Part shown: piece after piece, positions 38,561-53,184 of the stretch | How positions within the stretch are numbered: position 1 is the first letter of the stretch | Layout of the letters: each line of letters begins with the position of its first letter | Source of the DNA: an uncultured Poribacteria bacterium | GTDB taxonomy: Bacteria; Poribacteria; WGA-4E; WGA-3G | NCBI GenBank assembly: GCA_951813565.1 | Contig: OX638351.1 | Location: 5,024,001 to 5,088,000 of the forward strand | Length of the DNA stretch: 64,000 bases | Reading direction: 5' to 3' | Notes under the pieces: model-generated | Seen by the model: the letters and a program-made list of their open reading frames with translations, nothing else | Told to the model about the DNA's origin: nothing | Database searches by the model: none | Made by a program: the position numbers and the translations under genes

Positions 38561-38589
38561 TTGACTTTTTCTGTGGTCTTTTGTATAAT
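38561..38589 (+). promoter_or_regulatory. Sigma70-type promoter TTGACT-N17-TATAAT
   Basis: Near-consensus hexamers upstream of a structured leader and 38767. Confidence 0.7.
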
Positions 38590-38594
38590 ACTTA

Positions 38595-38720
38595 TAACGA
38601 CCAAACAAACGTTTCACATGGGTACCCTTGTTCTAAAATTATATTTTGAACGTTTGGCTTGGTCGCCGGGGGTGCCCCAACTTTTTGCAATAGGGGGCAC
38701 CACAGGCGACGAAGCCGCCA
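38595..38720 (+). promoter_or_regulatory. Structured 5' leader with two alternative stems
   Basis: 38620-38630 can pair with 38667-38677; alternatively a long hairpin forms over 38657-38715. Confidence 0.55.
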
Positions 38721-38766
38721 CACAATATGCAAGTGTGGCAAATGATAATTTTATAGGAGGTTATTA

Positions 38767-39450
38767 ATGATACGTAACATCCTACCTTACAAATGGATTA
38801 TAGGGGGGATAGTCCTTCTGATAATCATCGCCAGTGCATGTTACTTATGGTACCAACATGACACGGCACCTTATAGGCAAGAAGCAGCTGATGCCGAACA
38901 ATTGCTACGCCAATCGGAGATAGAAAAATCCGAGAAAAGCAAGGTAGCAGAACAGGCATCCGATGCACCTGCGGAAAGCAACACGCCAACCGCAGAGAAA
39001 CCTATAACTAACGAAGTAACCAACGACGATGAAGTCGCAACCGCAGAGAAACCGCAGATGTCCCCCTTCGGACTTGGTCCTTTGCCTGAAATACCGAAAG
39101 AATGGGACGCGCCATATCTGTGGAAAAACTGCGACGATATTGAAGATGAATTACTGACACGCGTGATCATAAAAATGCATCATGATGGCATACGCGATAA
39201 GTATAGTAGTGTCGGTATAGATCACGCCACAGGACTTGTCATACCAGTTGAATATGGCACTGTTCTTGTTTATTATGAAACCGATGAAAACGGTGAGCAA
39301 AGAATATGGAGCGTAAGCGGACATCCTGCTGACGTTCCACATGGCACTATTTACACACGTGCCAGTGAAATTCCTTCACATCTAAAGATTGTCACCGAAG
39401 AAGAGATAGCGATTGACCCTTATGAATATTTGGGTCTACAAAAACCGTAG
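38767..39450 (+). CDS. Hypothetical membrane-anchored protein
   Basis: AGGAGG RBS, N-terminal TM helix, low-complexity linker, SPFGLGP.PEIP motif. Confidence 0.75.
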   Translation: MIRNILPYKWIIGGIVLLIIIASACYLWYQHDTAPYRQEAADAEQLLRQSEIEKSEKSKVAEQASDAPAESNTPTAEKPITNEVTNDDEVATAEKPQMSPFGLGPLPEIPKEWDAPYLWKNCDDIEDELLTRVIIKMHHDGIRDKYSSVGIDHATGLVIPVEYGTVLVYYETDENGEQRIWSVSGHPADVPHGTIYTRASEIPSHLKIVTEEEIAIDPYEYLGLQKP

Positions 39451-39464
39451 GAGGTTTTATTATC

Positions 39465-40268
39465 ATGAAAAAAGTAGTAGTTTTCTTAACAATAGCGATT
39501 TTCATTGGCATGATCGCCTATGTCGCATATTCTAATTCTAATCGTCGTTCATCCTGGGTCTATTTAGACATCAATTCAACGTATGGTTCTGCTTATAATC
39601 CACCAACTTTTAGAGCTAAAGGATGTTTCGGCTCCGATAGCGAGGGTCCGTTGTATAGCTCAGGGGATTCATCTGTCAGCTATACGGATGATGGATACGA
39701 CCGCACTACCGGGCTTAACAATACCGAAGCATTTGCTTATCCAGCAGGAGCTGAGGGGGCACTCAATGAAATATTGGATGCCGGTCATTACTTTGAGAAT
39801 AATCTGGTATTAGAGGATGCTGAGGGTACTCTAACTGATGTTGTAGGTTTTTTGGCTAATGAGGATTTTAAAATATATAGAGCAAAGACCTATAATAGGA
39901 AATTTGCAGTGAGTGCTGACGCCTATGTTTCTTGTTGGACAGATAATGCTAACTACAAAACAGAGTATAACCTATATGCCCAAGTGCCAGCAGGTTTTTA
40001 ATACCCAAATTATCGGAAGATAGGGCCTATAACGAAATATGGTTCATTCTCTCGTTCTACCTCACGCAGCGGCGATAAAGATGGGTGGGATCATGAAATC
40101 AGCACGAACCCGAATGGGCAAGCTTCTGCCTCTGGAACGAATCCATCAGATGGGACGACGCATAACACATCTGCTTTCACACCCACGCCGGGCAGTGCGA
40201 ATGAATTAACTATCAACTGTGGTTTCTGTGATGACTCTGGGTGTGATGTCTGTAATCCGCACAGATAA
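39465..40268 (+). pseudogene. Secreted hypothetical protein with in-frame TAA at 39999-40001 and Cys-rich C-terminus
   Basis: Same frame stays open for 88 more codons to CGFCDDSGCDVCNPHR*, and a terminator follows. Confidence 0.7.
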
Positions 40269-40291
40269 TCACATAAACAAACCTATCAACC

Positions 40292-40330
40292 AATAGGCAG
40301 GTATCCGTTTTGGATATCTGCCTATTTCTT
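40292..40330 (+). terminator. Rho-independent terminator
   Basis: AATAGGCAGGTATCC-GTTTT-GGATATCTGCCTATT followed by a T-rich tract. Confidence 0.75.
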
Positions 40331-40868
40331 ATTTTCACATACCTGTTATAAAAATGCTCAGATTCCCCACAGGCGCGTTTTATGATACCTTATAAACTCC
40401 ACCGGCATACAATACGATTTTTGCATTGACGTATTTTGGCAACCTACTGTCAAGTTAACCTGAGATATCGAAGTTAAAAAGCTGCGGAATACCAAACGTG
40501 TATTTTAACGTGAGTTTGATAAATCCCGTAGGGAATCAACACCTTATTTTCCTCGTTAACATCAAAAACCATATCTTCTATATCGGAAATGTTTACAACT
40601 TTCAATTGATCTTGATAGTGTTAACTTAAAGTTATTCACACTAAATATTAGGCTTAAAGTGTATCAGATATTAGGTAAAAAATCAACATTAACCACAGAT
40701 TATCTCAACACAAAATTCAGAACTGAAATATAGTCAGTTTTACAAAAAATCTTGAATTTCGGGCAGGCATGCCGTATACTATTTATATGAGGGATGTGCA
40801 TAAATATTGGCGCATCAACACAGACAGGGACAGACGCCAGGTGCCGCTTGATTTATAGAAATGCGTTT

Positions 40869-41010
40869 GTAGTCGCGCAATTCATTGCCAAATCAACGCA
40901 GCATGCGCCAAATCAACGGTATGAATGCCTTATGGCATTCCCCGTGTGGCATGCTGCGCCTCTTTGAACTTGTGGACGGAGACCCACGGCGTGTGCGGAC
41001 TACCTTTAAG
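40869..41010. repeat. REP invaded by nested AATCAAC micro-units (40889-40957 containing 40909-40943), then a ~45-bp repeat also found at 22377-22420
   Basis: Removing the units restores GTAGTCGCGCAATTCATTGCGCCTCT (intact copy at 57729). Confidence 0.8.
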
Positions 41011-41122
41011 CGCATATTTAACATCGGAATTATTTATGCACACCCCTCATTTATATTGACTAACAGATATCCTGAAGGAAATTGACATACTCCCAAGCTA
41101 AAGCATGGGGATTCTTCTATCA

Positions 41123-42280
41123 TCAGAGACTGCCTGCCGAGGCAGGTGTTACGTCTCCTCCTGAAAAGGTTGACGCCCCAACCTTATGAATATTTATAGC
41201 GGCGTTTATATCGCGGTCATGAGAGATTTTGCAGTGATGACAATACCAATCGCGCACACTCAAATTAAAGAACATCTGGATTTGTCCGCAGGCGTGGCAA
41301 ACTTTGCTTGTGGGTGTCCATCTGTCAATCTGCTTGACATGCTTGCATCGTTTTTGTGCTTGCCATTTGATTTTCAGCATGAAATCTCCAAAGGCGTAGT
41401 CAGAGACTTTTCGTCCCCAGAGGCGTTTCATGCCATCAAGGTTCAAGTCTTCAAAGTAGCAGACATCAAACTTTCGGACAAGTTCAAGTGCGAGTTTCCA
41501 GTGATGGTCTTCACGTTGCCGATTGATTTTCCTGTGTACCCGTGCAAGGTCTTTCCTCACACGCTCGCGATTGTTGCTGCCTTTTTGCTTCCGAGACAAC
41601 GCACGACTCGCACGTTTTATCAGTTTAGCAGCAGATTTATAGAATTCAGGAGATTGATATTTTGTGCCATCGGAACAGGTGAGGAAGTGCTTGAGTCCAA
41701 AGTCAAACCCTGCTGTCCTACCAGTCTTAGGTGCAGGCTCAAGTCCCTCAGTGTCTGTTGTGATAGTGATATACCAATCCCCTACAAAGTCTTTCTTAAC
41801 GGTAACCTGTTTGATGTTGCCTTCAATAGGTCGGCTATACCAGAATCGGTACCAGCGTCTATTGATACGGATTTTCGCAACGGGGCAGCCATCTATTTTG
41901 TCAATAGTTTCTATTTTCACTTGGCTACCATCAAAAGTCATAGATTTATATTTATACCGACTTCTAAATTTAGGTGGACGCTTGGCTCTACCTTCAAAGA
42001 AGTTTTGCCAACCTCTGTCAACACGTTGGATACATTCTTGCAAACACCAAGAATACGGAACAGTCCAGTGTTGATATTTAGCAAGTCGTTTCAGTTTCGT
42101 CAGATGTTTAATCATTCTGTAGCAGCTTGGACGCTTATAGTCTTCGCAATGTCCGTAGATGCGATAGTGACGCTGCCACAACGCAACAAAATGGTTATGG
42201 ACATGTGCAATGATATGCAAATCTTTTTGCATAAGACGGTTTCTTTTGTGTTCTTGTCCCTTGTATTTGTAGGTTCGCAT
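41123..42280 (-). CDS. tnpB: TnpB RNA-guided endonuclease
   Basis: GFDFG, YFEDL, CHAC...CHHC, DRDINAA. Confidence 0.95.
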   Translation of the reverse strand: MRTYKYKGQEHKRNRLMQKDLHIIAHVHNHFVALWQRHYRIYGHCEDYKRPSCYRMIKHLTKLKRLAKYQHWTVPYSWCLQECIQRVDRGWQNFFEGRAKRPPKFRSRYKYKSMTFDGSQVKIETIDKIDGCPVAKIRINRRWYRFWYSRPIEGNIKQVTVKKDFVGDWYITITTDTEGLEPAPKTGRTAGFDFGLKHFLTCSDGTKYQSPEFYKSAAKLIKRASRALSRKQKGSNNRERVRKDLARVHRKINRQREDHHWKLALELVRKFDVCYFEDLNLDGMKRLWGRKVSDYAFGDFMLKIKWQAQKRCKHVKQIDRWTPTSKVCHACGQIQMFFNLSVRDWYCHHCKISHDRDINAAINIHKVGASTFSGGDVTPASAGSL

Positions 42281-42294
42281 TACCTATATCCTTC

Positions 42295-42402
42295 GCATTA
42301 CAATGCCAACTTCAAATGGTGCGGTGGCACTCTCAAGCGAGAGGTGAAGTCCACCGCTGTAATGCTGAATATAGTATACCAAAAACGCAAGGAAAAATCA
42401 AC
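42295..42402 (-). promoter_or_regulatory. tnpB promoter (TTGATT-N17-TATACT) and structured 5' leader
   Basis: Stems GCATTACA/TGTAATGC, GCGGTGG/CCACCGC and CTCTC/GAGAG close just before the GAAGGA RBS. Confidence 0.6.
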
Positions 42403-42475
42403 AAAAAAATGGAGACGTTAGCGGTGTCTACATCCCCGTGCTAAAGCAACGGGGTTTTGACACCGAAGATTGATA

Positions 42476-45244
42476 ATGAACGATTTTAAACAAATACTGT
42501 CAACTATTAGCCGTCCGTTTCAGCAAGAAATCCGAAAAGGCTGCCAAGACGATGTTGTCATAAACGGGATGGGTGCTTATGTGGATCTCTGGGTAGGACA
42601 TGCAAAGGCACTTGAACTCACCGCTGATGAAAAACAGTTTATCAATCAAATCGCTGCACTTTTTGAAAACTATACCGGTATGTCGCCGACAGAACGCCAA
42701 CAGGCTATTCAAAATGCCTCAGAACAGATTAATTCTGCACGCTCCGGTAAGCCAATAATAGATAAAACACCTACAACAAGCAACGCTGAGACGCAACAGT
42801 CCCACACGACAGAGTTAGGGGTGAACGTAGGGAACAAAAAGCCTATCCCCGCACCCTCAAAACAAGTTGAGAACTTACCACTATTTCAAGACGCCGGCGT
42901 TTCTCAGGGGACAACTGCCTCTTCAGAAAATACCCCAATTCCTGAAAAAACGACACCAAGTAACCTCAATCAGACTCGTAACGCTTCCCTATTCCCGCCT
43001 GATACCACCCCTGTGATGCGTTCTGAAGATGTTGAAGACCCAGAGGAAATACCTGTCATACTTGGGGATACACCTGTTTCAACAGATGTTGAGGAACTTG
43101 AATTTCTCAATAATCCGCTGCAATATCTGAAAGGGATTGGACCGCGCCGTGCTGAAATTTTAGCAGAAGAAATCGAAATACGAACAGTGGGTGGATTGTT
43201 AGAATATTATCCACGTGACTACATTGATAGATCCAAAACCGTAGAAATTTACAATGTCGGACGAACAGAAGACGGTGAACCAGAAACGATTCAGGGAAGG
43301 GTTGTTAATCATGTAACAACACCGCCAGTGGCGAAAGGTCGCAAGAGCATTGGTAAGGTCTCAATTTACGATGGCACTGGGGTTGCCGTGTTAGTCAACT
43401 TTGGGCGACGTATCGGCTATATCAAGTCTATACTTCCTACTGATACAGAGGTAGTTATCAGTGGAAAATTCACTCGCCGCTACAATGAAATCCAAACAAC
43501 AGACTATGAATTTGAGGTATTTGACGAAGAAAACCTGATTCACACGAAACGTATCGTGCCGAAATATCCACTCACAGCAAAACTCACAGCGAAAATGCTA
43601 CGGACAGCAGTTCGCAACGCATTGAATGAACATGGCGACAGCATTCCCGAAATTTTACCACTCACACTCCGCCAAAAACACCAGTTGATTGACAGACAGC
43701 AGGCAATTAACGAGATCCATTTTCCCTCTTCAGAAGCACATCAGCAAGCGGCACAGCGGCGGCTTGCGTTCGATGAATTTTTCCTACTCAGTCTCGGAAT
43801 GGAGATGCGTAAAGACAATAGAACTTCACAAAACGGCATCCAATTTGAGATTGAAAGTGCGCTGCAGGACAGCAATTCGCTTCTGAGGAAATTCGTGAGT
43901 TCGTTATCGTTTAAGTTAACCAATGCACAAAAAAGGGTTTTCAATGAGATTCGAGAAGATATGCAAAGTCCGCGGGTGATGAACCGATTGATTCAGGGAG
44001 ATGTCGGTTCGGGTAAAACCGCTGTCGCTGCAATGGCGCTGCTATGTGCGATTGAGAACGGATATCAAGGTGCTTTAATGGTGCCGACCGAAATCCTCGC
44101 AGAGCAACACTATCATAATCTTTCAACACTATTAACACCGCTTAGTGTGAAGGTTGTACTTCTCAAAAGCGACCTACCAAAGTCTGAACGGGAAGAAACT
44201 TTGACTGCAATAACAGATGGCTCTGCCAACCTCATTATTGGCACACAGGCACTGATACAGGAAGGCGTAGATTTTCACAAACTTGGACTCGTTATCATTG
44301 ATGAACAGCACCGTTTCGGAGTAATGCAACGCGCAACACTCAGAGGCAAAGCAAAATCATCTGCATCACAAGAAAATGATGCCGAAGCGCAGCTATCGCC
44401 CGATGTTCTTGTTATGACTGCCACCCCAATTCCGAGAACCCTTTCCCTGACTATTTACGGTGATTTAAATGTATCGGTAATTGATGAGATGCCACCGGGA
44501 AGACAGAAAATTGAAACCCAATGGATAAAAGAGAAAGACAGAACGGAATTCTACGCAAAACTTGAAAAAGAGGTGCACCGTGGGAAACAAGCTTACGTCG
44601 TCTATCCGCTCGTAGAAGAATCAGAAAAACTTGAGGAATTAAAAGCCGCCACAAGTATGGCAGAACATATCCAGAAAGATGTCTTTCCACATCTACGTGT
44701 TGGACTATTGCACGGACAGATGAAGTCTATAGAGAAGCAGGAAGTTATGTCAAGTTTCAATGCGTGTGAGATCGATATCTTAGTTGCAACGACGGTGATT
44801 GAGGTAGGTATTGATGTGCCGAATGCAACGCTGATGGTAATTGAAAACGCGGAACGGTTCGGTTTAGCGCAGTTACATCAGTTGCGTGGCAGGGTCGGCA
44901 GAGGCAGCGATAAATCATTTTGCTACCTTGTTGCAACGCCAAAAACAGATGAGGCATACCGCCGAATTCAGGTGATGGTGCGTTCTAATAACGGATTTGA
45001 AATTGCTGAAGAAGATTTGAATATCCGCGGTCCGGGTGAATTCTTCGGCACACGGCAGTCAGGAATACCCAAATTCAAAATCGCTAATATCATCAGTGAT
45101 GCTGCACTTTTGGAAACAGCGAAAAAAGAGGCGATGCTATTGATAAAAGACGATCCACAGTTAAATAACACTGAACATCAACTGATGAAACGGATGTTAA
45201 ATGCACATTGGAAAGGACATCTGGAGATCGCATCTGTTGGTTAG
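42476..45244 (+). CDS. recG: ATP-dependent DNA helicase RecG with extended N-terminus
   Basis: LIQGDVGSGKT, DEQHRFG, MTATPIPR, QLRGRVGRG, GPGEFFGTRQSG. Confidence 0.97.
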   Translation: MNDFKQILSTISRPFQQEIRKGCQDDVVINGMGAYVDLWVGHAKALELTADEKQFINQIAALFENYTGMSPTERQQAIQNASEQINSARSGKPIIDKTPTTSNAETQQSHTTELGVNVGNKKPIPAPSKQVENLPLFQDAGVSQGTTASSENTPIPEKTTPSNLNQTRNASLFPPDTTPVMRSEDVEDPEEIPVILGDTPVSTDVEELEFLNNPLQYLKGIGPRRAEILAEEIEIRTVGGLLEYYPRDYIDRSKTVEIYNVGRTEDGEPETIQGRVVNHVTTPPVAKGRKSIGKVSIYDGTGVAVLVNFGRRIGYIKSILPTDTEVVISGKFTRRYNEIQTTDYEFEVFDEENLIHTKRIVPKYPLTAKLTAKMLRTAVRNALNEHGDSIPEILPLTLRQKHQLIDRQQAINEIHFPSSEAHQQAAQRRLAFDEFFLLSLGMEMRKDNRTSQNGIQFEIESALQDSNSLLRKFVSSLSFKLTNAQKRVFNEIREDMQSPRVMNRLIQGDVGSGKTAVAAMALLCAIENGYQGALMVPTEILAEQHYHNLSTLLTPLSVKVVLLKSDLPKSEREETLTAITDGSANLIIGTQALIQEGVDFHKLGLVIIDEQHRFGVMQRATLRGKAKSSASQENDAEAQLSPDVLVMTATPIPRTLSLTIYGDLNVSVIDEMPPGRQKIETQWIKEKDRTEFYAKLEKEVHRGKQAYVVYPLVEESEKLEELKAATSMAEHIQKDVFPHLRVGLLHGQMKSIEKQEVMSSFNACEIDILVATTVIEVGIDVPNATLMVIENAERFGLAQLHQLRGRVGRGSDKSFCYLVATPKTDEAYRRIQVMVRSNNGFEIAEEDLNIRGPGEFFGTRQSGIPKFKIANIISDAALLETAKKEAMLLIKDDPQLNNTEHQLMKRMLNAHWKGHLEIASVG

Positions 45245-45258
45245 TTGTTTGAGAAACA

Positions 45259-45472
45259 CCATAGGCATCAATTAAAGGAAATATCCCTTGTAGGAGGGGT
45301 TTTCAACCCCGATTTTAGCACGCCCCTTTCGTACCTCTGGTGCTTTGATTTTGGGTGATATGTATTCTATACACCTTTCACACCGCTGGTGCTGATATAA
45401 GTTTGCTGAAGCCTCGGAGAGGCGACAGGTATATCAAATGATAAACGTTATCCACTAAATTGACGCCTATGG
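45259..45472. mobile_element. MITE-like element with TIR CCATAGGC(A/G)TCAATT and internal REP
   Basis: CCATAGGCATCAATT versus AATTGACGCCTATGG; related ends at ~22330-22348 and 30861/31260. Confidence 0.55.
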
Positions 45473-45515
45473 GTATTGATAGAGAAACACATAAGCATCT
45501 TACATTTGAGGAAAA

Positions 45516-46742
45516 ATGGCTCAACAAACAGAAGTTTTAATTGTCGGCGGTGGCATTTGGGGGCTAAGTACCGCCTACCATTTAGCAAAGTTTGGACAAA
45601 AGGACGTTCTTGTTTTGGAACGCAACGAGGCAGTCGCTGCGGAGACGACGCCCCAGGCTGCGGGTCTTGTCGGTCAAATTCGGTCCACGGTTACTATGTT
45701 GCAGGCAATCCGATATGCACTTGAACTGTTCTCTCAGTTTCCGGAAGAAACCGGACATGATACCAGTTTGCGTCGAACTGGGAGTTTGATGGTAGCACTC
45801 ACGCCGGAACGAATGGAGGCTTACACACATCAAATTGAAAGGGCTAACCAAAACGGAATTGAGGCAAACTTTGTTTCCCACGCCGAAATGGCTCGCCTTG
45901 CTCCTGCAATGAATGTGGACAAGATAGAAGGCGGATATTTCGTGCCCAATGACGGATATGTTGATCCACGGCAGTGTGCTCTCGCCTATGCTGCTGCAGC
46001 AAGAGATTTAGGAGTACAAATCCGATTGAATACATCTGTAACAGGATTTCGGCAGCGCAATGGGGAGATCCTGGGAGTAGAGACAGAAAACGGTTTTTTT
46101 ACATCAAATCATGTCGTAATCACTGCTGGACCGTGGGGTGCTGTCCTCTCCGAGAAAGTTGGTGCAACCACGGCGGTACAAACGATCCGTCATCAACGCG
46201 TTCGCACGGTGCCGACTCCCGGAATTCCTAACCATCACCCAGTTGTGCGCGTCACAGATGTCAGTTGCTACCTGAGACCTGACAAAGGTGGTTACCTTTA
46301 CGGGTACTTTGAACCAAAGCCTGTTAGTATTGATTTGCAAGCGATGCCTGCTGACTTCAGGACAGAAGATATTGAACCACCCGTGGATGTTATCACAGAA
46401 GCACGAAAACGGCTTACTCCAATCTTCCCGATTCTGAAAGACTTTGAAATAGCCGAGTATAATAGTGGCATGACAACATTTGCGCCTGATGGTGCTTATC
46501 TGATTGATGCCGTGCCAGGGATTGACCGCCTATACTTAGCCATAGGTTGTGCTGCTTTGGGGATTGCCGGTTCGGCGGCAGTTGGTCGATGGTTGGCGAA
46601 GTGGGTGATCAACGGAGATCCTGGCGAAGATTTAACTGTTTTTTCACACCAACGGTTTGGCACTCAAGCCGCTGATCAAAAATGGTTACGTCAAGAAAGC
46701 GAGCAGTTTTACGCAAACTACTACGGCATCCGCCCAGAATAG
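45516..46742 (+). CDS. FAD-dependent oxidoreductase (sarcosine oxidase beta / dimethylglycine dehydrogenase-like)
   Basis: IVGGGIWG, TT..AAG, DGYVDP, TFAPDG. Confidence 0.88.
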   Translation: MAQQTEVLIVGGGIWGLSTAYHLAKFGQKDVLVLERNEAVAAETTPQAAGLVGQIRSTVTMLQAIRYALELFSQFPEETGHDTSLRRTGSLMVALTPERMEAYTHQIERANQNGIEANFVSHAEMARLAPAMNVDKIEGGYFVPNDGYVDPRQCALAYAAAARDLGVQIRLNTSVTGFRQRNGEILGVETENGFFTSNHVVITAGPWGAVLSEKVGATTAVQTIRHQRVRTVPTPGIPNHHPVVRVTDVSCYLRPDKGGYLYGYFEPKPVSIDLQAMPADFRTEDIEPPVDVITEARKRLTPIFPILKDFEIAEYNSGMTTFAPDGAYLIDAVPGIDRLYLAIGCAALGIAGSAAVGRWLAKWVINGDPGEDLTVFSHQRFGTQAADQKWLRQESEQFYANYYGIRPE

Positions 46743-46764
46743 TAATTTCCAATTGCAACCCTTT

Positions 46765-46788
46765 GCTGGCGAGGTTTCCTAACCTCGC
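46765..46788. repeat. REP palindrome; perfect 24-bp inverted partner at 47281-47304 flanks the RAYT gene
   Basis: GCTGGCGAGGTTTCCTAACCTCGC / GCGAGGTTAGGAAACCTCGCCAGC. Confidence 0.85.
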
Positions 46789-46793
46789 TATTT

Positions 46794-47258
46794 TCACCAT
46801 CCCATCTCGTATTTACACCGCCAATACGGATACTCCCGGGCAGTTTTTACCAACCCTTTTCTCACAGGATTCAAGTAACAATAGCGGATCATCTTATTCA
46901 ATGCCGTCTCATCCCGAACCGCCCAATCCCTATACTCGGCTTGCCAGAACCTCCCACACCGTGATAGATGTTTATTGATTTCACGTGCTGTAAACAGTTT
47001 CAGTGAGTGCAAAACCTTTGGAAGTGTTTGTCCGATCCCAAGTTCAATTATGCTATGGACATGGTCGGGCATAATCATGATACAAATCCACCGAATCCGG
47101 TGTTTCGTTTCTAACCAATCAAATGTTTCAAAGATAATTGAGGCGACGTTGTTGTTTGCAAGAAGCGGCAGCCGCTGGTGTGTATTGATTATAATATGGT
47201 AATAGGCACCAGATATTGAAGTCCGGCCTTTACGCAAGTCATGATTTGAAAATTTCAT
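46794..47258 (-). CDS. REP-associated tyrosine transposase (RAYT, Y1 HUH)
   Basis: YHIIINT, IMPDHVH (HUH), FWQ..Y.D..VR, Y..LNPVRKGLV, YPYW. Confidence 0.9.
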   Translation of the reverse strand: MKFSNHDLRKGRTSISGAYYHIIINTHQRLPLLANNNVASIIFETFDWLETKHRIRWICIMIMPDHVHSIIELGIGQTLPKVLHSLKLFTAREINKHLSRCGRFWQAEYRDWAVRDETALNKMIRYCYLNPVRKGLVKTAREYPYWRCKYEMGW

Positions 47259-47478
47259 GATATTTTCCTCCATCTGCTTGGCGAGGTTAGGAAACCTCGC
47301 CAGCAGCGTGTTATACCAAATTATTCTAAATCATTGGGGCGGGGTCCCACTGAATGCCACAAAGACATTCACAGTGTTGATTTGATGCCCACCCGTGTTT
47401 TCGGTAGTGAAATAATAAAAATCTCGTTAATTTTGGTATGATACGAAGGCCTCATGGAAATTGCATAAACCCTAATTA

Positions 47479-47567
47479 TTACTGCGAAACTGTAATCAAC
47501 CGATACAACTGCAGCACAGTAACAGAAGACGCCTGGAGGCTAATGTAGACTTTCGGTCAACGGATAC
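47479..47567 (-). repeat. Distal cassette boundary: diverged 49-bp copy of the 3' end of gene 52216..53184 (41/49 identical) plus a 40-bp cassette tail
   Basis: Encodes SVTVLQLYRLITVSQ*; tail 47528-47567 identical to 49926-49965. Confidence 0.9.
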
Positions 47568-48611
47568 CTATTTCTTTAGTGCCCCCCACCTGACTTTTTT
47601 TTTGCCCTGTGGTGAGACAGACAGCACATCATCACTTATCCAATCCAGTGTCCCATCCGTGCCCGGATGGTTTGTTAACCGCGTTATCTCACCTGTCCAA
47701 ATATGATACTTATAGATATTGCACGGTGGGTATACAAAACCGCGCGGCAGCGGTTTGTCCAAAGGGATGCCGACATACGCACCGAAAACGATTGATTCAC
47801 CGTCCTCCATCCAGTCTATACCGTATCCTTCCCAGTCTTTCGGTATTCGGAGTTGCCTGATGTTCCCGCCGTTCCGATCACAAACGATATACCGGAACGC
47901 TTTGTAGACAGGAAAGTTCCCGTCATTCGGTATCGACACGTATTTATACTCTTTTTGTTGAAATACGATCTGCTTACCATCGGGCGACCAGCGCGTTCTC
48001 GATCTATAAGTGGCGAATTCTCCTGGGCCGGGGGCAGGGAGAAGTGGGCGCGGGTTATGACCATCTGCTCCCATAATCCAGATCGTGCTATTGACGCCGA
48101 TTGTCTGTCCCAATGCAAACACAATATGCTTACCATCCGGCGACCAATCACATTGGATACCCCAGATATCCGATATTTGTTCCATCTTCCCCGTCTGAAT
48201 ATTCAGCACGTAGATGCCGCCTTTCAACTCGTCGTTTTTTCGATAAGTCCTACCAAAAACAATAGATGTGCCATCTGGTGAAAATCTGCCGCCGTTGATA
48301 GAACTCCCATCGTTTTCAGTGAGTTGCCGAATGTTTGTGCCATCTGCATTCATCAAGAAAAGAACGTAATTTGCGTTTCTCTTCGCGCGTCTCTTAAACA
48401 GAATCTGTTGACCGTCCGACGACCAAGTGGGGCAACACGGTCTCAACGTTTCAGATTCGGTCAGTGGCGTGATATTGCTGCCATCATCGTCCATAACATA
48501 GATACCGTAGAGACCACCATCATGTCGTGAACTAAAAACGATTTTTGCATCTGCCGCTGTTGACAAAAGCAGTAGCAGCAGACAGAGTAGGCCGGCTTTT
48601 TGGAGGCACAT
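47568..48611 (-). CDS. Secreted TolB-like (PD40) beta-propeller, cassette 2
   Basis: Signal peptide, WSPDG repeats, C-terminal VSPQGKKKVRWGALKK. Confidence 0.85.
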   Translation of the reverse strand: MCLQKAGLLCLLLLLLSTAADAKIVFSSRHDGGLYGIYVMDDDGSNITPLTESETLRPCCPTWSSDGQQILFKRRAKRNANYVLFLMNADGTNIRQLTENDGSSINGGRFSPDGTSIVFGRTYRKNDELKGGIYVLNIQTGKMEQISDIWGIQCDWSPDGKHIVFALGQTIGVNSTIWIMGADGHNPRPLLPAPGPGEFATYRSRTRWSPDGKQIVFQQKEYKYVSIPNDGNFPVYKAFRYIVCDRNGGNIRQLRIPKDWEGYGIDWMEDGESIVFGAYVGIPLDKPLPRGFVYPPCNIYKYHIWTGEITRLTNHPGTDGTLDWISDDVLSVSPQGKKKVRWGALKK

Positions 48612-48667
48612 GGTTATTCTCCTTGTAGGGAATGGCAGGGGAATTTATCCCTGCCGTTACATTGGAA

Positions 48668-49511
48668 TTATGGATTATCTACATCCGTAAATTCCTGAAC
48701 ACCGGTATCCGCTTCCCAGTGGTCTTCCTCATGCTGACCAGCTATTTCACCATTCACTTGGAGGTGGGTGTGCGCATCAAAATAAAGCACTTCCTCATCT
48801 CCGATTTGTCTGCCGAGTGAATATTCGACCACCATAGAATCGACGGAATCAGAATGCGTGTCCCCAGACGGAAGATCGTCAAAGACAATTGGTTGGTCAA
48901 GAGGGGGGTCTCTTTTGATCCATTCCTGGGCCCCAGGCCCATTTGCAAGGGTGGTGAACTTCTGCTGTCGGAACCAGGCGGCGGCATCAAGTTCTATATT
49001 GGTGCCGTTATATGCTGAGGCAGAGGCACTCATGACGAAAGACGATCCATCAAAGTAGTGGGCTGAGACTTCTGCATAGCCGTACACACCGGTATTTTCT
49101 CCGATACCTGATGTTACTACCGGTTGGTAGAGTGTTAGGTAATAGGACTCGGTGTCTTCAGAAGGATCTCCATCATTTTCTCGCCAGGCTTCTGCGCGGA
49201 TCTCATACTCTCTACCTTTAACGGTTCCATCATTCAAGTTGTGCCATAAATTAAAATGGGCACTCGTTTTGACTTCATTACCAGAAAAAGTCTGTCCTAT
49301 CAATTCTTCGCCAAAATAAATGTCTATCTGGTCATAGGGTTCATTGGTTTCAACGGACACAGATAAAGATGTACCGCCATCACTTGAAGTATATCCAGAG
49401 GCACTCATCTCCACAATCTCAATATCAGCTTTACTACTATTGACAATACTAACTTAGCAATAGGGAACATATAATTGCTACTGCAATGCCGATTGATTTC
49501 AATCTTAACAT
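48668..49511 (-). pseudogene. Secreted acidic beta-rich protein, cassette 2, frameshifted in its signal peptide
   Basis: MLRLKSIGIAVAIICSLLLS then a frame change (~49450) to SIVNSSKADIEIVEMSASG; homologous to 51050..51850. Confidence 0.8.
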
Positions 49512-49556
49512 TTTTCTCTCCTTGTAAGGTAATATGCTTTGATAGCATATCGGTTA

Positions 49557-49925
49557 TTTATCGGGTTCCCTATCCTTGTTCGGTAGACCTTCCACCGCTT
49601 AGTAAAGATTTGGGCACCCTTACAACTAAACTATGATTCTTTACATAGTATTAGAAAGGGCACCTATATTGAAATCAATGTTTTGGCTATAACCAAGATT
49701 ATACAACAAATTCCGAACCTATGCAAAATGCTTAACATGGATTTCCAAAACAACGATATATGATACCCTTCATAATGTTAAGACACAGTATTAAGTTGCA
49801 AAGGGGGCATTCCACAAAAAAAAATGAAATTAGGAAAATAAACAGATTCTAATATGCACTTCTGTTTTCAAAAACTTTATTCGGAGGCTGTTATCAACCG
49901 ATACAACTGCGGCACGGTAACAGAA
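49557..49925 (-). repeat. ~369-bp direct repeat (copy at 51897-52264): host gene tail, promoter TTGCAT-N17-TATAAT and structured leader
   Basis: Identical except for A9 versus A8; similarity extends with a few changes into the signal-peptide codons. Confidence 0.95.
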
Positions 49926-49965
49926 GACGCCTGGAGGCTAATGTAGACTTTCGGTCAACGGATAC

Positions 49966-50985
49966 CTATTTCTTTAGCGTTCCCCACGTTACTTTTTTTT
50001 TGCCTTGCGGGGTAGCAGAAAGCACATCATCGCTGATCCAATCCAACGAAGGATTCAACCATGTTTGTTCTGATAACCGGGTGATGCGTCCTGTAGCAAT
50101 ATTATATTTATAGAGATGGTAAGGATGCACCAAACCTTCTACCGGAACATTTAATTCTACTTCCCTTGCACTGAATAGAATGGATTTACCGTTATCCATC
50201 CAGTCAAGCGCGCTCGGGAAATACGTCTTCGGTATCAGCAGTTGCTTGGATTGATGTGTGAATAGATCGTAAATAAAATAACGGTTTGCCTGTGGAATGA
50301 AACCGACATTTGGATTAAATTTTGATTCATACTGGCCATATAGTATCTGTTTTCCGTTTGGAGACCATCTGGCATAGCCACCCCGGTTAATCAATACCTC
50401 CCCCAGCGGTAGTTGTGGTAGCAATTCGCGCGGATGTCCGCCATCGGCATCCATGATCCATAGATTACTTCCTGTCTTTCCCAAAACCGGAATATCAGAA
50501 AAAACAATCTGCTTGCCGTCGGGAGACCAGTCGGGAAAGTTTACACCGAAATCGGCGATCTTTTTTATCTTACCACTAACCAAGTCAATAACATTGACAC
50601 TTCGTTTGAGTTCGTTATCTATTCTCTCACTTCTACCAAACAGAACAGACGTGCCATCCGGAGAAAATACGGGTTTCGAATCCTTCGCCCCTCGTGTCAA
50701 GAGACGTTCATTTGTGCCATCTGCGTTTATGACAACAATCTGTCTCCGATCCCAATTACCTGGTTTCAGAAATCTTGCAAAAACAATATGTTTACCATCG
50801 GGGGACCAGCGCGTGGCAGTAGGGTATCGCGTATCAATGAGTATCGTGGTGATCCCTGTGCCATCATCCTCCATCACGGAGATGCTCTTAACTTCTTCCG
50901 CTATGTATGATACAACAACGATCTTTGCGGTTACCGCTGTGGCAATCAGCAGAAGCAAGCAGAGTGTGAATACCAGTATTCGCAT
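49966..50985 (-). CDS. Secreted TolB-like (PD40) beta-propeller, cassette 1
   Basis: AAGGAG RBS before MRILVF, WSPDG repeats, C-terminal ATPQGKKKVTWGTLKK. Confidence 0.85.
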   Translation of the reverse strand: MRILVFTLCLLLLIATAVTAKIVVVSYIAEEVKSISVMEDDGTGITTILIDTRYPTATRWSPDGKHIVFARFLKPGNWDRRQIVVINADGTNERLLTRGAKDSKPVFSPDGTSVLFGRSERIDNELKRSVNVIDLVSGKIKKIADFGVNFPDWSPDGKQIVFSDIPVLGKTGSNLWIMDADGGHPRELLPQLPLGEVLINRGGYARWSPNGKQILYGQYESKFNPNVGFIPQANRYFIYDLFTHQSKQLLIPKTYFPSALDWMDNGKSILFSAREVELNVPVEGLVHPYHLYKYNIATGRITRLSEQTWLNPSLDWISDDVLSATPQGKKKVTWGTLKK

Positions 50986-51049
50986 AATAACACTCCTTAT
51001 ACTTTGTGGAAGGGGCTCTAAAACCCCTTCCAAATAAATGCCGAAAAGA

Positions 51050-51850
51050 TCAATTGTGTTCGCAATCTAAGGTATTTATAAGTAAATAATCGTCGGTTCC
51101 ATTGTTACCGCCCACCTTGAGACGGACGTATGCTTCACCAGTGTATTCCGTACCCTGCCAACCACCCGACAGTGTTATACCTTGAGAACCTGGATCACGA
51201 AAGGATCTTTTTCCATCCTCACCCCTTATTTCGCCAGCATTAGGATTCCAATCTTTATTTTCTTTTCCTGCTATATCGGGGAAAGAAGCTTTATACTCAG
51301 TCCCCACATCAACCGTGCCATCGGCTTTTTCTCCATTATGATATGCGGTGGCCCAGTAGTCAAATGACATATACCCGGACGCATAGTCATAAGTATGCTT
51401 GCTAATTTGCACATATCCATCCACGAAGAGAAGGTGTTGGACACCATCAGGGGTAGATTTGGAGATCGGCGCATAGATTGTCAATTCGTAGGAGTCATTG
51501 TCAGAGAGATAATTCGCGTTCTCGTCTATATGCCAAGCGACTGCCTTTATTGTGTAATCAGCACCTGATATATCACCTGACAAGGTGGGGTAGCACGTCG
51601 CGTTGGTCTCGTTCCCCGATAGCAGACTCGTATATTCATATACGACGTTCCCATCTTTATCCTCTACAGACCAGTCCACATAGTTAATGCCTTCATCTGT
51701 TGTTATATACGCGTAGCAATAGGCACCATCTCCCCAATCATCAGCTCCGGCTGCTGTCATCCAAGTAATCTCAATAGCATGACTATTGATAACAAAGCAC
51801 AGGGAACAGAGCATCGCCACTGCCATGCCGATTGATTTCAATCTTAACAT
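51050..51850 (-). CDS. Secreted acidic beta-rich hypothetical protein, cassette 1
   Basis: AAGGAG RBS, signal peptide ending SHA. Confidence 0.8.
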   Translation of the reverse strand: MLRLKSIGMAVAMLCSLCFVINSHAIEITWMTAAGADDWGDGAYCYAYITTDEGINYVDWSVEDKDGNVVYEYTSLLSGNETNATCYPTLSGDISGADYTIKAVAWHIDENANYLSDNDSYELTIYAPISKSTPDGVQHLLFVDGYVQISKHTYDYASGYMSFDYWATAYHNGEKADGTVDVGTEYKASFPDIAGKENKDWNPNAGEIRGEDGKRSFRDPGSQGITLSGGWQGTEYTGEAYVRLKVGGNNGTDDYLLINTLDCEHN

Positions 51851-52215
51851 TTTTCTCTCCTTGTAAGGTAATATGCTTTTGTAGCATATCGTAGTGTTTA
51901 TCGGGTTCCCTATCCTTGTTCGGTAGACCTTCCACCGCTTAGTAAAGATTTGGGCACCCTTACAACTAAACTATGATTCTTTACATAGTATTAGAAAGGG
52001 CACCTATATTGAAATCAATGTTTTGGCTATAACCAAGATTATACAACAAATTCCGAACCTATGCAAAATGCTTAACATGGATTTCCAAAACAACGATATA
52101 TGATACCCTTCATAATGTTAAGACACAGTATTAAGTTGCAAAGGGGGCATTCCACAAAAAAAATGAAATTAGGAAAATAAACAGATTCTAATATGCACTT
52201 CTGTTTTCAAAAACT

Positions 52216-53184
52216 TTATTCGGAGGCTGTTATCAACCGATACAACTGCGGCACGGTAACAGAAAAATCGCCAGAAATGTGGTAACTCTTCCCACCATCC
52301 TTGACAGTGCGAATAAGAATTGTCTTTTTAGGGCGGTGATAGTAATGCGAATCGGTGGGTTTACCTTCCTCCTGAAAATCTGGAAAATCAATCAAATCGA
52401 AATTAGCGGTGGTGAAATGCCGAATTTCTTCACCTCGTTGTGTAGCAATGTTCCGCGCCATAGATAGGCTTTTGAGGTAGACCTCAGGTCCCATCACAGC
52501 AGAACCTAAGTTCAGGAAAACGCCACCTTCCAATTGCGAAACAGTGTGCACAAATCGGAGAAAATCCTCCCCCGTTGTCCAACCGATAGCGGCATAATCC
52601 GCAGCAGGATGCTGATCGGTTATATCGTAGCCAATACCTTTGTGAACGGTTATCGGCACACCTAATCGGAACGCTGCAGCAAATATGCTCACATCACGGT
52701 GTGGAAAAGAGATGTCCTCTTCTCCTTCTTGGATCAATCTGCCAATTGCCTCTCCAAAACCGATTTTATCTTTGTAGCCTCTAACGATAGCTTCGTTCAG
52801 ATAGCGTCCCGTTTCTTCCCAATTGCCAAACTTTCCATCCTTTATATACATCTCCACATCTTCAAGTGTTGCGCCGATGTGTGCCATTTCAAAATCGTGG
52901 ATAGCACATGCACCATTAGTTGCTATATGTGTTATTATTCCGCGTTCCATCAGATCAATGATGTAACGGGAGTTGCCACGCCGCATCACGTGCGCACCCA
53001 TCATCCAGATAACCTGTTTCTTGTTTTGGCGTGCTTGGACAATACGTTCAGCAACGATGTTTAGCCGTTCATTTTGATATGGAGGCGTTTCAGCATCTAA
53101 GGTATAGATGTCTGCCACGGTCATCTTGTGTTGGCGTTCAGAGAGCGGCAAGATTCTAAGGCGAGAGCGATTAAATTGTGACAT
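52216..53184 (-). CDS. Conserved protein, deoxyhypusine-synthase-like NAD-binding fold
   Basis: MMGAHV, ATNGACAIHDFE, IGYDITDQHP, GSAVMGPEVYLK. Confidence 0.6.
   Translation of the reverse strand: MSQFNRSRLRILPLSERQHKMTVADIYTLDAETPPYQNERLNIVAERIVQARQNKKQVIWMMGAHVMRRGNSRYIIDLMERGIITHIATNGACAIHDFEMAHIGATLEDVEMYIKDGKFGNWEETGRYLNEAIVRGYKDKIGFGEAIGRLIQEGEEDISFPHRDVSIFAAAFRLGVPITVHKGIGYDITDQHPAADYAAIGWTTGEDFLRFVHTVSQLEGGVFLNLGSAVMGPEVYLKSLSMARNIATQRGEEIRHFTTANFDLIDFPDFQEEGKPTDSHYYHRPKKTILIRTVKDGGKSYHISGDFSVTVPQLYRLITASE

What the first reader, a model, noticed from the sequence alone, without database searches (positions are those of the whole stretch)
38595..52030. Candidate switch-like leader RNA shared by unrelated secreted-protein operons
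Seen: after a TGTATAAT -10 box, the leaders at 38595-38720 (+) and 49690-49563 / 52030-51903 (-) share the order TTTCA..GGTRCCCTT - ~35 nt - GGGTGCCC..CTTT - downstream complement. The central GGGUGCCC can pair upstream (GGGUACCCUUG/CGGGGGUGCCC; GGUGCCCUU/AAGGGUGCC, using G-U pairs) or downstream (GGGGCACC in a long hairpin; GGGAACCC with AUCUUU/AAGGAU and inner CGGUGG/CUACCG). Intervening sequences differ but pairing is kept. A further hairpin ATATGCT..AGCATAT before the cassette RBS varies only in its loop between copies. Inference: an unclassified cis-regulatory RNA with mutually exclusive folds; paired DNA operators are an alternative.
Basis: partly seen in the sequence, partly recalled or inferred. 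Interest (0 to 1): 0.7.

Follow-up and report, generated by a model that had tools for sequence, protein, structure and literature searches.

The report
Two-state leader RNA in Poribacteria cassettes
A roughly 100-base RNA at the very start of many secreted-protein operons in sponge-symbiont Poribacteria keeps two incompatible folds, each maintained by compensating mutations; it matches no catalogued RNA family and probably decides during transcription whether the genes are read.

Summary
The motif is real and larger than first described. It has 8 copies in this genome and matches in 33 of 40 genomes of the genus; no Rfam family matches, Poribacteria-1 included. State A (P1) excludes state B, a three-way junction of the X:Y octamer helix plus hairpins P2 and P3. 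Both states covary, with repeated independent compensatory changes and G·U tolerated but C·A not, so this is RNA pairing rather than DNA operators. State B ends just before a conserved U-tract. Once downstream strand Z is made, B costs about 14 kcal/mol, so it can act only during transcription. Best reading (0.5): an attenuator or pause switch with unknown trigger; the U-tract is atypical for a terminator. 82 of 84 first genes encode exported proteins. The leader rides on mobile cassettes: 38-bp target duplications here, 4.1-kb Rep circles and IS1595 units in relatives. The window's two minus-strand copies are near-identical and have a decayed P1. No RNA data were available. Earlier scan notes describe other Poribacteria leaders; look-ups by sequence found none for this one.

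The parts
38561..38589 (+). sigma70-type promoter of copy 1 (TTGACT-17-TATAAT, extended TG)
   Evidence: 11 of 12 matches
38592..38695 (+). copy 1 core leader RNA (covariance-model match, 89.3 bits; this copy helped build the model)
38598..38616 (+). P1 5' strands a (38598-38604) and b (38606-38616), state A
   Evidence: covariation
38620..38627 (+). X octamer GGGUACCC
38631..38650 (+). hairpin P2 (state B); its 3' arm overlaps strand b' (38647-38656)
38655..38668 (+). hairpin P3 (GGC/GCC, state B); its loop is strand a' (38659-38665) of P1
38670..38677 (+). Y octamer GGGUGCCC (pairs with X in state B, later with Z)
38682..38686 (+). U-tract (putative pause/release site)
38693..38716 (+). Z (38693-38701) and Z-extension (38705-38716), complementary to Y and to a'
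38717..38760 (+). pre-RBS hairpin (38717-38739) and GGAGG (38756-38760)
38767..39450 (+). cargo gene A: N-terminal hydrophobic anchor plus conserved C-terminal domain without known match
39465..40001 (+). cargo gene B: variable secreted protein
40296..40322 (+). conserved cassette-end terminator hairpin
51933..52043 (-). copy 3: -10 box 52043-52038, a 52029-52023, X 52005-51998, P2 51996-51977, Y 51959-51952, U-tract; P1 and P3 decayed
51857..51937 (-). copy 3 downstream part: inner hairpin 51937-51921, Z 51910-51903, pre-RBS hairpin 51889-51871, SD 51862-51857
51050..51850 (-). cassette 1 cargo: secreted protein, no Pfam match
49966..51033 (-). cassette 1 cargo: PD40 (TolB-like) beta-propeller
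49593..49703 (-). copy 2: -10 box 49703-49698, a 49689-49683, X 49665-49658, P2 49656-49637, Y 49619-49612, U-tract; P1 and P3 decayed
49518..49597 (-). copy 2 downstream part: inner hairpin 49597-49581, Z 49570-49563, pre-RBS hairpin 49550-49532, SD 49523-49518
48668..49511 (-). cassette 2 cargo: secreted-protein gene with an in-frame stop after 20 codons; the remainder is open from 49414
47568..48611 (-). cassette 2 cargo: PD40 beta-propeller
52227..52264 (-). 38-bp direct repeat 1 (3' end of gene 53184-52216; left border of the insert)
49888..49925 (-). 38-bp direct repeat 2 (between the two cassettes)
47490..47527 (-). 38-bp direct repeat 3 (92% identical; right border)

Best explanation
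A co-transcriptional two-state leader switch (attenuator-like) that travels with mobile cassettes of exported-protein genes in one Poribacteria family. Transcription from a conserved sigma70 promoter starts at the base of a long helix, P1 (state A), which forms first. When octamer Y emerges, the RNA can refold into state B: X:Y helix, hairpin P2 and small hairpin P3. B is nearly equal in energy to A and needs both halves of P1 opened. B places a GC-rich helix a few bases before a conserved U-tract, where RNA polymerase is expected to pause or release. If polymerase moves on with P1 intact, strand Z captures Y (and often a' and X), which removes state B, and the cargo genes are transcribed. Shown: the two folds, their mutual exclusion and their selection at RNA level. 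Inferred: transcription, pausing or termination at the U-tract, and the direction of control (B = off). Unknown: the trigger (small ligand, protein, elongation rate or stochastic partitioning).
For: P1: 98.1% and 94.1% of cells paired in 104 distinct sequences, and 12 of 13 pairs change on both sides; 0 of 500 shuffles reach the whole-structure values; slid controls reach at most 56.5% paired. On an alignment not fitted to structure, P1 is 90.4% paired. X:Y: position X6/Y3 is C-G 55, U-A 37, U·G 19, C·A 0 of 121, against about 18 C·A expected by independence, with 8 C-G/U-A switches on a tree built without those columns. P3: pair 112:122 is G-C 63 / C-G 33 of 102 and ranks 8th of 4725 column pairs (z 12.5), with 8 switches; P3 was not in the model. 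Exclusion: P2 and P1b share at least 2 nt in 108 of 117 copies with a P2, and P3 uses the a' strand. Timing: P1 is the minimum-energy fold at the end of Y in 115 of 121. B minus A is +2.8 kcal/mol median at 37 C. Keeping B after Z is made costs a median 14.5 kcal/mol. U is 84-98% at positions +7 to +10 after Y, and TTNTTT occurs in 67 of 121 versus 0 of 121 in a control window. A pause lying between the two arms of an alternative stem is the layout reported for the fmnP riboswitch (PMC11602163, passages).
Against: The U-tract is offset. Only 43 of 121 copies have at least 2 U in the first three positions after the helix, versus 27 of 28 strand-readings of the genome's cassette-end terminators (that set counts some hairpins on both strands). 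The helix closes a loop of about 40 nt, unlike usual terminators. The host NusG reads W-A-F-V-Q-E where the pausing residues W76, Y77, R80, N81 of B. subtilis lie (residues from bioRxiv 2022.10.28.514324; register set by eye), so NusG-type pausing is doubtful. The two minus-strand window copies strongly favour B (-20.7 versus -7.9 kcal/mol with X and Y blocked); if B terminated efficiently these cassettes would be silent. The model does not fully explain why Z and its extensions are conserved after read-through. Few unpaired bases are invariant, which weakens a small-molecule trigger.
Confidence: 0.5

Rival explanations
1. Same two folds, but the output is post-transcriptional: P1 shields the 5' end from decay and B or the Z-captured form exposes it, or the folds alter ribosome access.
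For: P1 begins at about +1/+2. In 65 of 121 full leaders P1 is displaced by downstream strands. SD accessibility is higher in the free fold than with the 5' domain removed in 18 of 84 copies and lower in 6.
Against: 60 of 84 copies show no SD change above 0.2. State B is unfavourable once Z exists, so a post-transcriptional role does not explain selection on B. About 54 of 121 full leaders keep P1.
Confidence: 0.17
2. The helices form one compact, nested double-pseudoknot (5' strand a kissing the P3 hexaloop, X:Y packed beside P1b) that acts as a riboswitch aptamer or a ribozyme, with Z as the competing strand.
For: Strand a' is exactly the 6-nt loop of P3. The two A-U pairs at the top of P1a are nearly invariant while neighbours vary freely. 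Conserved 5' domain plus variable 3' part is the riboswitch layout (PMC7266159, passages).
Against: P2 overlaps P1b in 108 of 117 copies. The pairs that compete with P3 (8:121 and 20:110) are also about 90% paired, as expected for two states. Linker bases vary in length and sequence. By my recall of their topologies, HDV-like, pistol and twister folds do not map.
Confidence: 0.15
3. The main product is the ~100-nt terminated RNA, acting in trans (decoy, dimer through the self-complementary X, or antisense), with partial read-through into cargo.
For: Own promoter and a U-tract delimit a ~100-nt unit. X is self-complementary in most copies. Up to 22 copies per genome.
Against: In 84 of 121 copies an SD-led ORF starts 59-183 nt downstream on the same strand, and 11 more lead into a second leader module. 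Downstream complements are conserved in cis.
Confidence: 0.08
4. DNA-level element: paired operator palindromes, or a single-strand hairpin or recombination site used in cassette movement.
For: The octamers are near-palindromes. A related octamer pair lies in the conserved cassette-end terminator. The cassettes are mobile. G·T is also tolerated in single-stranded DNA (established knowledge, recalled).
Against: G·U 64 versus A·C 8 cells in P1 and C·A 0 at X6/Y3 fix one strand. P1 is set relative to the -10 box. The mapped element ends (38-bp repeats, IS1595 inverted repeats) lie outside the motif. Related cargo moves with other leaders.
Confidence: 0.06
5. Neutral similarity left by duplication of paralogous cassettes.
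For: Two window copies are 97% identical; 67 of 84 first genes fall in 7 families.
Against: Core identity between copies is a median 65% while helices stay paired through about 17-22 switches per P1a pair. 24 sequence clusters of first genes carry it.
Confidence: 0.02

Closest known systems
Antisense-controlled attenuators of plasmids pT181 (repC) and pIP501 (repR) (PMC5703833, passages read)
   Same: Leader on a mobile element in which an upstream strand pre-empts a terminator-like helix followed by a U-tract; read-through is the default.
   Different: No antisense promoter found inside the leader (one search lists none between 38590 and 38790 on the minus strand of copy 1; others judged by eye). 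It controls secreted cargo, not rep directly. The helix closes a three-way junction and the U-tract is offset.
Transcriptional riboswitches with a NusG-dependent pause (fmnP, tenA, mgtE, lysP, mtnK; PMC11602163, passages)
   Same: Conserved 5' domain, variable 3' part, T-tract placed between the arms of an alternative stem.
   Different: No Rfam aptamer match; few invariant unpaired bases; no terminator after the Y:Z hairpin seen; host NusG lacks R80/N81 equivalents; no ligand known.
Poribacteria-1 RNA motif (Rfam RF03113)
   Same: Same phylum; ~107-position structured element.
   Different: Different consensus and two-hairpin structure; no match in this genome at E<=1; its five weak hits in relatives are not hit by my model.
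GEMM / c-di-GMP-I riboswitch (PMC7266159, passage)
   Same: Multi-copy leader in front of many disparate envelope-related genes.
   Different: No Rfam match at gathering or E-value thresholds; different architecture.
IS1595-family transporter elements and integrative islands with target duplication (names recalled; Pfam PF12762/PF12760)
   Same: Passenger genes between inverted repeats; insertion into a gene's 3' end with a short duplication.
   Different: Here the shared passenger is a promoter plus leader RNA; no integrase is seen within the window's cassettes.

Membership tests
Any Rfam 15 family | Covariance-model match at gathering score | tested here: not met
   0 matches in the window; only unrelated sub-threshold hits at E<=10 on copy 1 and at E<=1 on 12 loci
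Poribacteria-1 (RF03113) | Match to the family model and consensus | tested here: not met
   (0 of 112 genomes over cut-off)
Transcription attenuator | Mutually exclusive leader folds conserved by covariation | tested here: met
Transcription attenuator | Canonical intrinsic terminator (helix directly followed by U-tract) | tested here: inconclusive
   Median 5 U in 8 nt, but at least 2 U in the first three positions in only 43 of 121; scanner finds none in copy 1
Transcription attenuator | Premature 3' ends in vivo or in vitro | not testable with these tools
   No RNA holder listed
Leader-peptide attenuator | Conserved translated uORF | tested here: not met
   AUG at X in 94 of 121, but the downstream UAA is in frames 0/1/2 in 32/33/39 copies and ORF lengths scatter
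Antisense-RNA attenuator (pT181/pIP501 type) | Counter-transcript promoter inside the leader | tested here: inconclusive
   None in copy 1 by consensus scan; not scanned family-wide; no RNA data
Riboswitch | Specific ligand binding that shifts the folds | not testable with these tools
   needs in-line probing or reporter assays
Riboswitch | Conserved unpaired nucleotides forming a pocket | tested here: inconclusive
   Most columns at 90% conservation or more lie in helices; exceptions are the AU before X, one A of P2 and UUUUAA
Translational (SD-sequestering) switch | Fold-dependent SD occlusion | tested here: not met
   No change above 0.2 in 60 of 84 copies; 18 up, 6 down
Rho-gated leader | C>G single-stranded rut site exposed in one state | tested here: not met
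   Mean C 10.8 versus G 10.8 in +15..+60, although Rho is present
NusG-dependent pause (TTNTTT) | Motif plus pausing residues in NusG | tested here: inconclusive
   Motif in 67 of 121; NusG keeps W but not Y, R, N equivalents (register by eye)
Self-cleaving ribozymes (HDV-like, pistol, twister) | Family model match and catalytic core | tested here: not met
   No Rfam match; topology comparison from recall only; cleavage itself untested

The most novel reading that the evidence does not exclude
An undescribed class of sensor RNA: a finely balanced A/B switch (or compact double pseudoknot) that reads a small molecule or host-contact signal and gates a family-wide, mobile arsenal of exported proteins. 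It would use a three-way junction in place of a simple terminator hairpin. It would be one of several swappable and stackable leader modules that give the same cargo families different on/off logic.
Probability: 0.22. Interest if true: 0.85.

Novelty: new variant of a known kind. Interest (0 to 1): 0.62.

Why it matters
Covariation support for two incompatible folds in one natural leader is uncommon. Here there are over 100 diverged examples with a common promoter, so the switch can be tested directly in vitro without culturing the host. It sits almost only before exported proteins of an uncultured sponge symbiont, and the family studied has no known fold match. It moves on small circles, IS1595 units and tandem inserts. 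If it is a sensor, its trigger would show what switches on these symbiont surface and secreted proteins. If it is a kinetic or stochastic attenuator, it is a compact portable expression tuner.

Tried and rejected
RNA evidence: no RNA holder listed. Four DNA contig sets from 3 studies cover most of the region, but contigs break at the repeats, and no excision joint between the 38-bp repeats was among the 15 joints shown (15 more not shown); this says nothing about excision. Leader peptide: rejected. Rho/rut gating: no C>G skew. General SD switch: not seen. Thermoswitch: the B-A gap changes only from 4.1 to 1.5 kcal/mol between 10 and 50 C. A pure P1 + X:Y pseudoknot as the only fold: disfavoured by P2/P1b overlap and P3, kept as a rival in a modified form. 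A linker-versus-helix length test was uninformative because the lengths are coupled. Range outside Poribacteria: an exact-pattern scan gave 70 genome loci, 46 labelled Poribacteria; of the other 24 only one, labelled 'uncultured bacterium', scored with the model; 0 of 10 viral and 4 of 36 metagenome loci scored. Phage blastn gave only 25-29-base chance hits. Rfam accessions guessed from memory: RF03041, RF03042 and RF03043 were other families. Cargo function: no Pfam, PDB-sequence or ESM Atlas assignment. Single-sequence fold of 51850 was poor (pLDDT 38.8). The gene A domain folded well (pLDDT 92.7) but had no Foldseek hit at E<=0.001 and best Z 3.6; this does not show a new fold. The Rep protein was not found in this genome with this query, and of 20 Rep loci (about 1.5 kb flanks) only the G075 circle held the leader within the fetched stretch. 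No flanking target duplication was recognised at the other 6 copies in this genome; the repeats found at two looked like dispersed intergenic repeats. Literature: searches for Poribacteria with 'RNA motif' (0 papers), 'riboswitch' (1, unrelated), 'structured RNA' (1, unrelated) and two broader ones showed no description in the listings. The supplement of PMC5737381 could not be read and may bear on novelty; most subscription papers are not searched. R-scape was not available.


Full report
Setting. The window lies in a closed 5.43-Mb genome of 43% GC. Named records that carry the same motif are Candidatus Poribacteria, and the cargo proteins end in a K..VTWG.LKK-like tail that I recall as typical of that phylum. 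I therefore treat the host as Poribacteria.

Observation. A profile from the three window copies finds 8 loci in the genome at E<=1e-16, with the next at 0.052. A promoter-X-Y-U pattern occurs 6 times in the genome and never in 5 block-shuffled genomes. The two minus-strand copies are 97.2% identical over 465 bp and count as one example. Rfam gives nothing at gathering score in the window and only unrelated weak hits at relaxed thresholds. Poribacteria-1 (RF03113) is a different RNA: no match here, a different consensus, and its five sub-threshold hits in 112 genomes are not hit by my model.

Range. A covariance model built from 38 copies matches 33 of 40 genomes of the genus, with 0 to 22 copies each and 188 matches in all. 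In a phylum sample it matches 49 of 151 genomes: 47 of 99 others in the same family, 1 of 26 in a second family and 0 of 25 in the rest. Pattern scans found no credible copy in a record labelled outside Poribacteria. I analysed 128 distinct copies from the loci I fetched, not all matches. Seven failed my anchor rule and were dropped, leaving 121; 107 are from the window's genus, 12 from a second genus. Cores are a median 65% identical.

Anatomy. A -35/-10 pattern precedes 99 of 121 copies. The first P1 pair lies 7-8 nt after the -10 box in 87 of 121, so the structure begins at the predicted start site. The strand order is a, b, linker, X, P2, b', c, a', c', Y, U-tract, Z. State A is the long helix P1 (a:a' and b:b', median 19 bp). 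On the model-fitted alignment of 104 distinct sequences its halves are 98.1% and 94.1% paired, with both-side changes at 12 of 13 pairs. That alignment leans towards P1 and P2, but the plain MAFFT alignment already gives 90.4% and 10 of 13. G·U cells outnumber A·C cells 64 to 8, which points to the sense strand as single-stranded nucleic acid.

State B was not in the model. The X:Y helix is 96-100% paired at its eight positions; at X6/Y3 the counts are C-G 55, U-A 37, U·G 19, other 10 and C·A 0 of 121. An unbiased mutual-information scan returned, besides P1 pairs, columns 112:122 (G-C 63, C-G 33 of 102; rank 8 of 4725). This pair defines a 3-4 bp hairpin P3 whose loop is strand a' (93.5% paired). 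On a tree built without these columns, 112:122 and X6/Y3 each switch 8 times and P1a pairs 17-22 times (a short-sequence FastTree, so counts are rough). The X:Y pairs do not stand out in the mutual-information scan because the G-run is misaligned in that alignment; their support comes from the anchor-based count. P2 is 77% paired and overlaps P1b by at least 2 nt in 108 of 117 copies. So X:Y, P2 and P3 form one three-way junction that excludes P1.

Order of events. In nested folding, P1 is the best fold at the end of Y in 115 of 121 copies; at +30 nt, 103 have P1 plus Y paired downstream; at +90 nt, 65 have lost P1 to downstream strands and 54 keep it. State B lies a median 2.8 kcal/mol above A at 37 C and is favoured in 25 of 121. 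Once Z is made, keeping B costs a median 14.5 kcal/mol. Downstream complements to Y, a' and X beat at least 29 of 30 shuffles in 59, 53 and 60 of 121 copies. Since B is under selection yet unstable after Z, it most likely acts while polymerase is on the U-tract, or in a released short RNA. This is the core inference.

What the U-tract does is open. It is conserved at +4 to +11 after Y, offset by about three bases. Only 43 of 121 copies have two U in the first three positions, against 27 of 28 strand-readings of the genome's cassette-end terminators. The spacing fits a hairpin-stimulated pause roughly: bioRxiv 2022.10.28.514324 (passages) gives TTNTTT at -11 to -6 and a hairpin 11-13 nt upstream, and TTNTTT occurs in 67 of 121 versus 0 in a control window. 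But the host NusG lacks equivalents of Y77, R80 and N81 (by eye). Leader peptide, rut site, general SD occlusion and thermoswitch were tested and not supported. The window's minus-strand copies have decayed P1 and P3 and favour B strongly; they would be locked or leaky variants, which counts against efficient termination by B.

Genes controlled. In 84 of 121 copies an SD-led ORF starts 59-183 nt after Y; my rule missed some real starts, including the window's minus-strand copy. Of these 84 proteins, 82 have an N-terminal hydrophobic stretch, in 22 of 24 sequence clusters, against 787 of 2224 genome ORFs. Eleven further copies lead into a second leader module; earlier scan notes read that module as a poly-C uORF attenuator, which I did not test. 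The same cargo families occur in this genome behind other, unrelated leaders, so leaders and cargo are interchangeable. Cargo function is unknown: PD40 propellers aside, no family was assigned, and a confident model of the gene A domain had no structural match.

Mobility. The two minus-strand cassettes lie between three 38-bp direct repeats that copy the 3' end of the upstream gene. Of 17 orthologous sites printed, 7 have that gene directly next to the downstream oxidoreductase, one (G006) holds a single ~3.2-kb cassette with the same arms and other cargo, and three keep only the start of the arm. At the site of copy 1, 1 of 19 relatives examined (G017) carries a leader within the fetched flank, with different cargo. 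In G075 a contig is a concatemer of a 4149-bp unit with a winged-helix Rep-like gene, the leader and two cargo genes. G053 has a 91-96% identical backbone with different cargo. In G051 and G052 the promoter and leader sit just inside the left inverted repeat of IS1595 units of 2472 and 3030 bp.

Comparison. It works most like the pre-emptor/terminator leaders of pT181 and pIP501 (PMC5703833, passages) and like pause-containing transcriptional riboswitches (PMC11602163, passages). It is a member of neither: no antisense promoter or ligand is shown and no family model matches. PMC7266159 (passages) notes that riboswitch candidates have conserved bases in loops and linkers; these are few here. 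My searches found no description in print (listings only). PMC5737381 has no mention of Poribacteria in its main text and its supplement could not be seen. Earlier notes of this scan describe several Poribacteria leaders before secreted-protein genes; look-ups by sequence returned none for these copies, and I could not tell whether two of those notes concern this family.

Verdict. A real, apparently undescribed RNA family with two covarying, incompatible folds, carried on mobile cassettes of exported-protein genes. Most likely a co-transcriptional attenuator or pause switch (0.5); expression, output and trigger are untested. Novelty: new variant of a known kind. Interest 0.62.

Noticed in passing
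window 40296-40322 and about 20 other places in G000: A cassette-end terminator hairpin (GGCAGGTATCC-loop-GGGTATCTGCC) is conserved in sequence behind strongly diverged cargo genes, whichever leader they carry. Its arms resemble the X/Y octamers. In the two minus-strand window cassettes only a truncated form remains.
   Followed up: partly
G000:C1 near 206055-217634, 3723545, 3725304, 1985252, 4562846, 1679985, 2962073, 3448936: The same cargo families sit behind at least three other multi-copy leader types, some in tandem arrays.
   Followed up: no
L097 (G075:C3) and L071/L336 (G053:C3): A ~4.1-kb circular-looking element with a winged-helix Rep-like gene and swappable cargo; Rep relatives in 34 of 112 genomes of the family.
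   Followed up: partly
L098-L101 (G051, G052): IS1595 units carrying passenger genes with their own promoter and leader; six equal-score copies in G051.
   Followed up: partly
window 49511-48668 (-): The cassette 2 secreted-protein gene has an in-frame stop after 20 codons; contigs of two runs match this stretch without differences, so it is not an assembly slip.
   Followed up: partly
window 46794-47273 (-), flanked by 25-bp inverted repeats at 46764-46788 and 47281-47305: Y1 (IS200-like) transposase next to the cassette array, resembling a REP-associated transposase (label recalled).
   Followed up: no
window 41123-42280 (-): TnpB-like gene (OrfB_IS605 plus Cas12f1-like TNB domain) downstream of the copy 1 cassette.
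   Followed up: no
window 39043-39447 (alignment A3): C-terminal domain of cargo gene A: about 25 paralogues in the genome, confident model (pLDDT 92.7), no clear structural match.
   Followed up: partly
L161 (G048:C15): Four tandem cassettes: two with a minimal leader lacking P2 (perfect 16-bp P1) and two that keep only Y onward behind a different upstream sequence.
   Followed up: partly
L011/L082 (G003): A copy cut off right after P3, with unrelated sequence in place of Y.
   Followed up: no
G000:C1:593527-594166 and 2195363-2195712: ARAGORN calls two tmRNAs, one permuted and overlapping a tRNA-Ala; the first may be spurious.
   Followed up: no
L356-L358: Diverged, sub-threshold relatives of Rfam Poribacteria-1 ending at an SD-like sequence, although Rfam lists the family as sRNA.
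   Followed up: no
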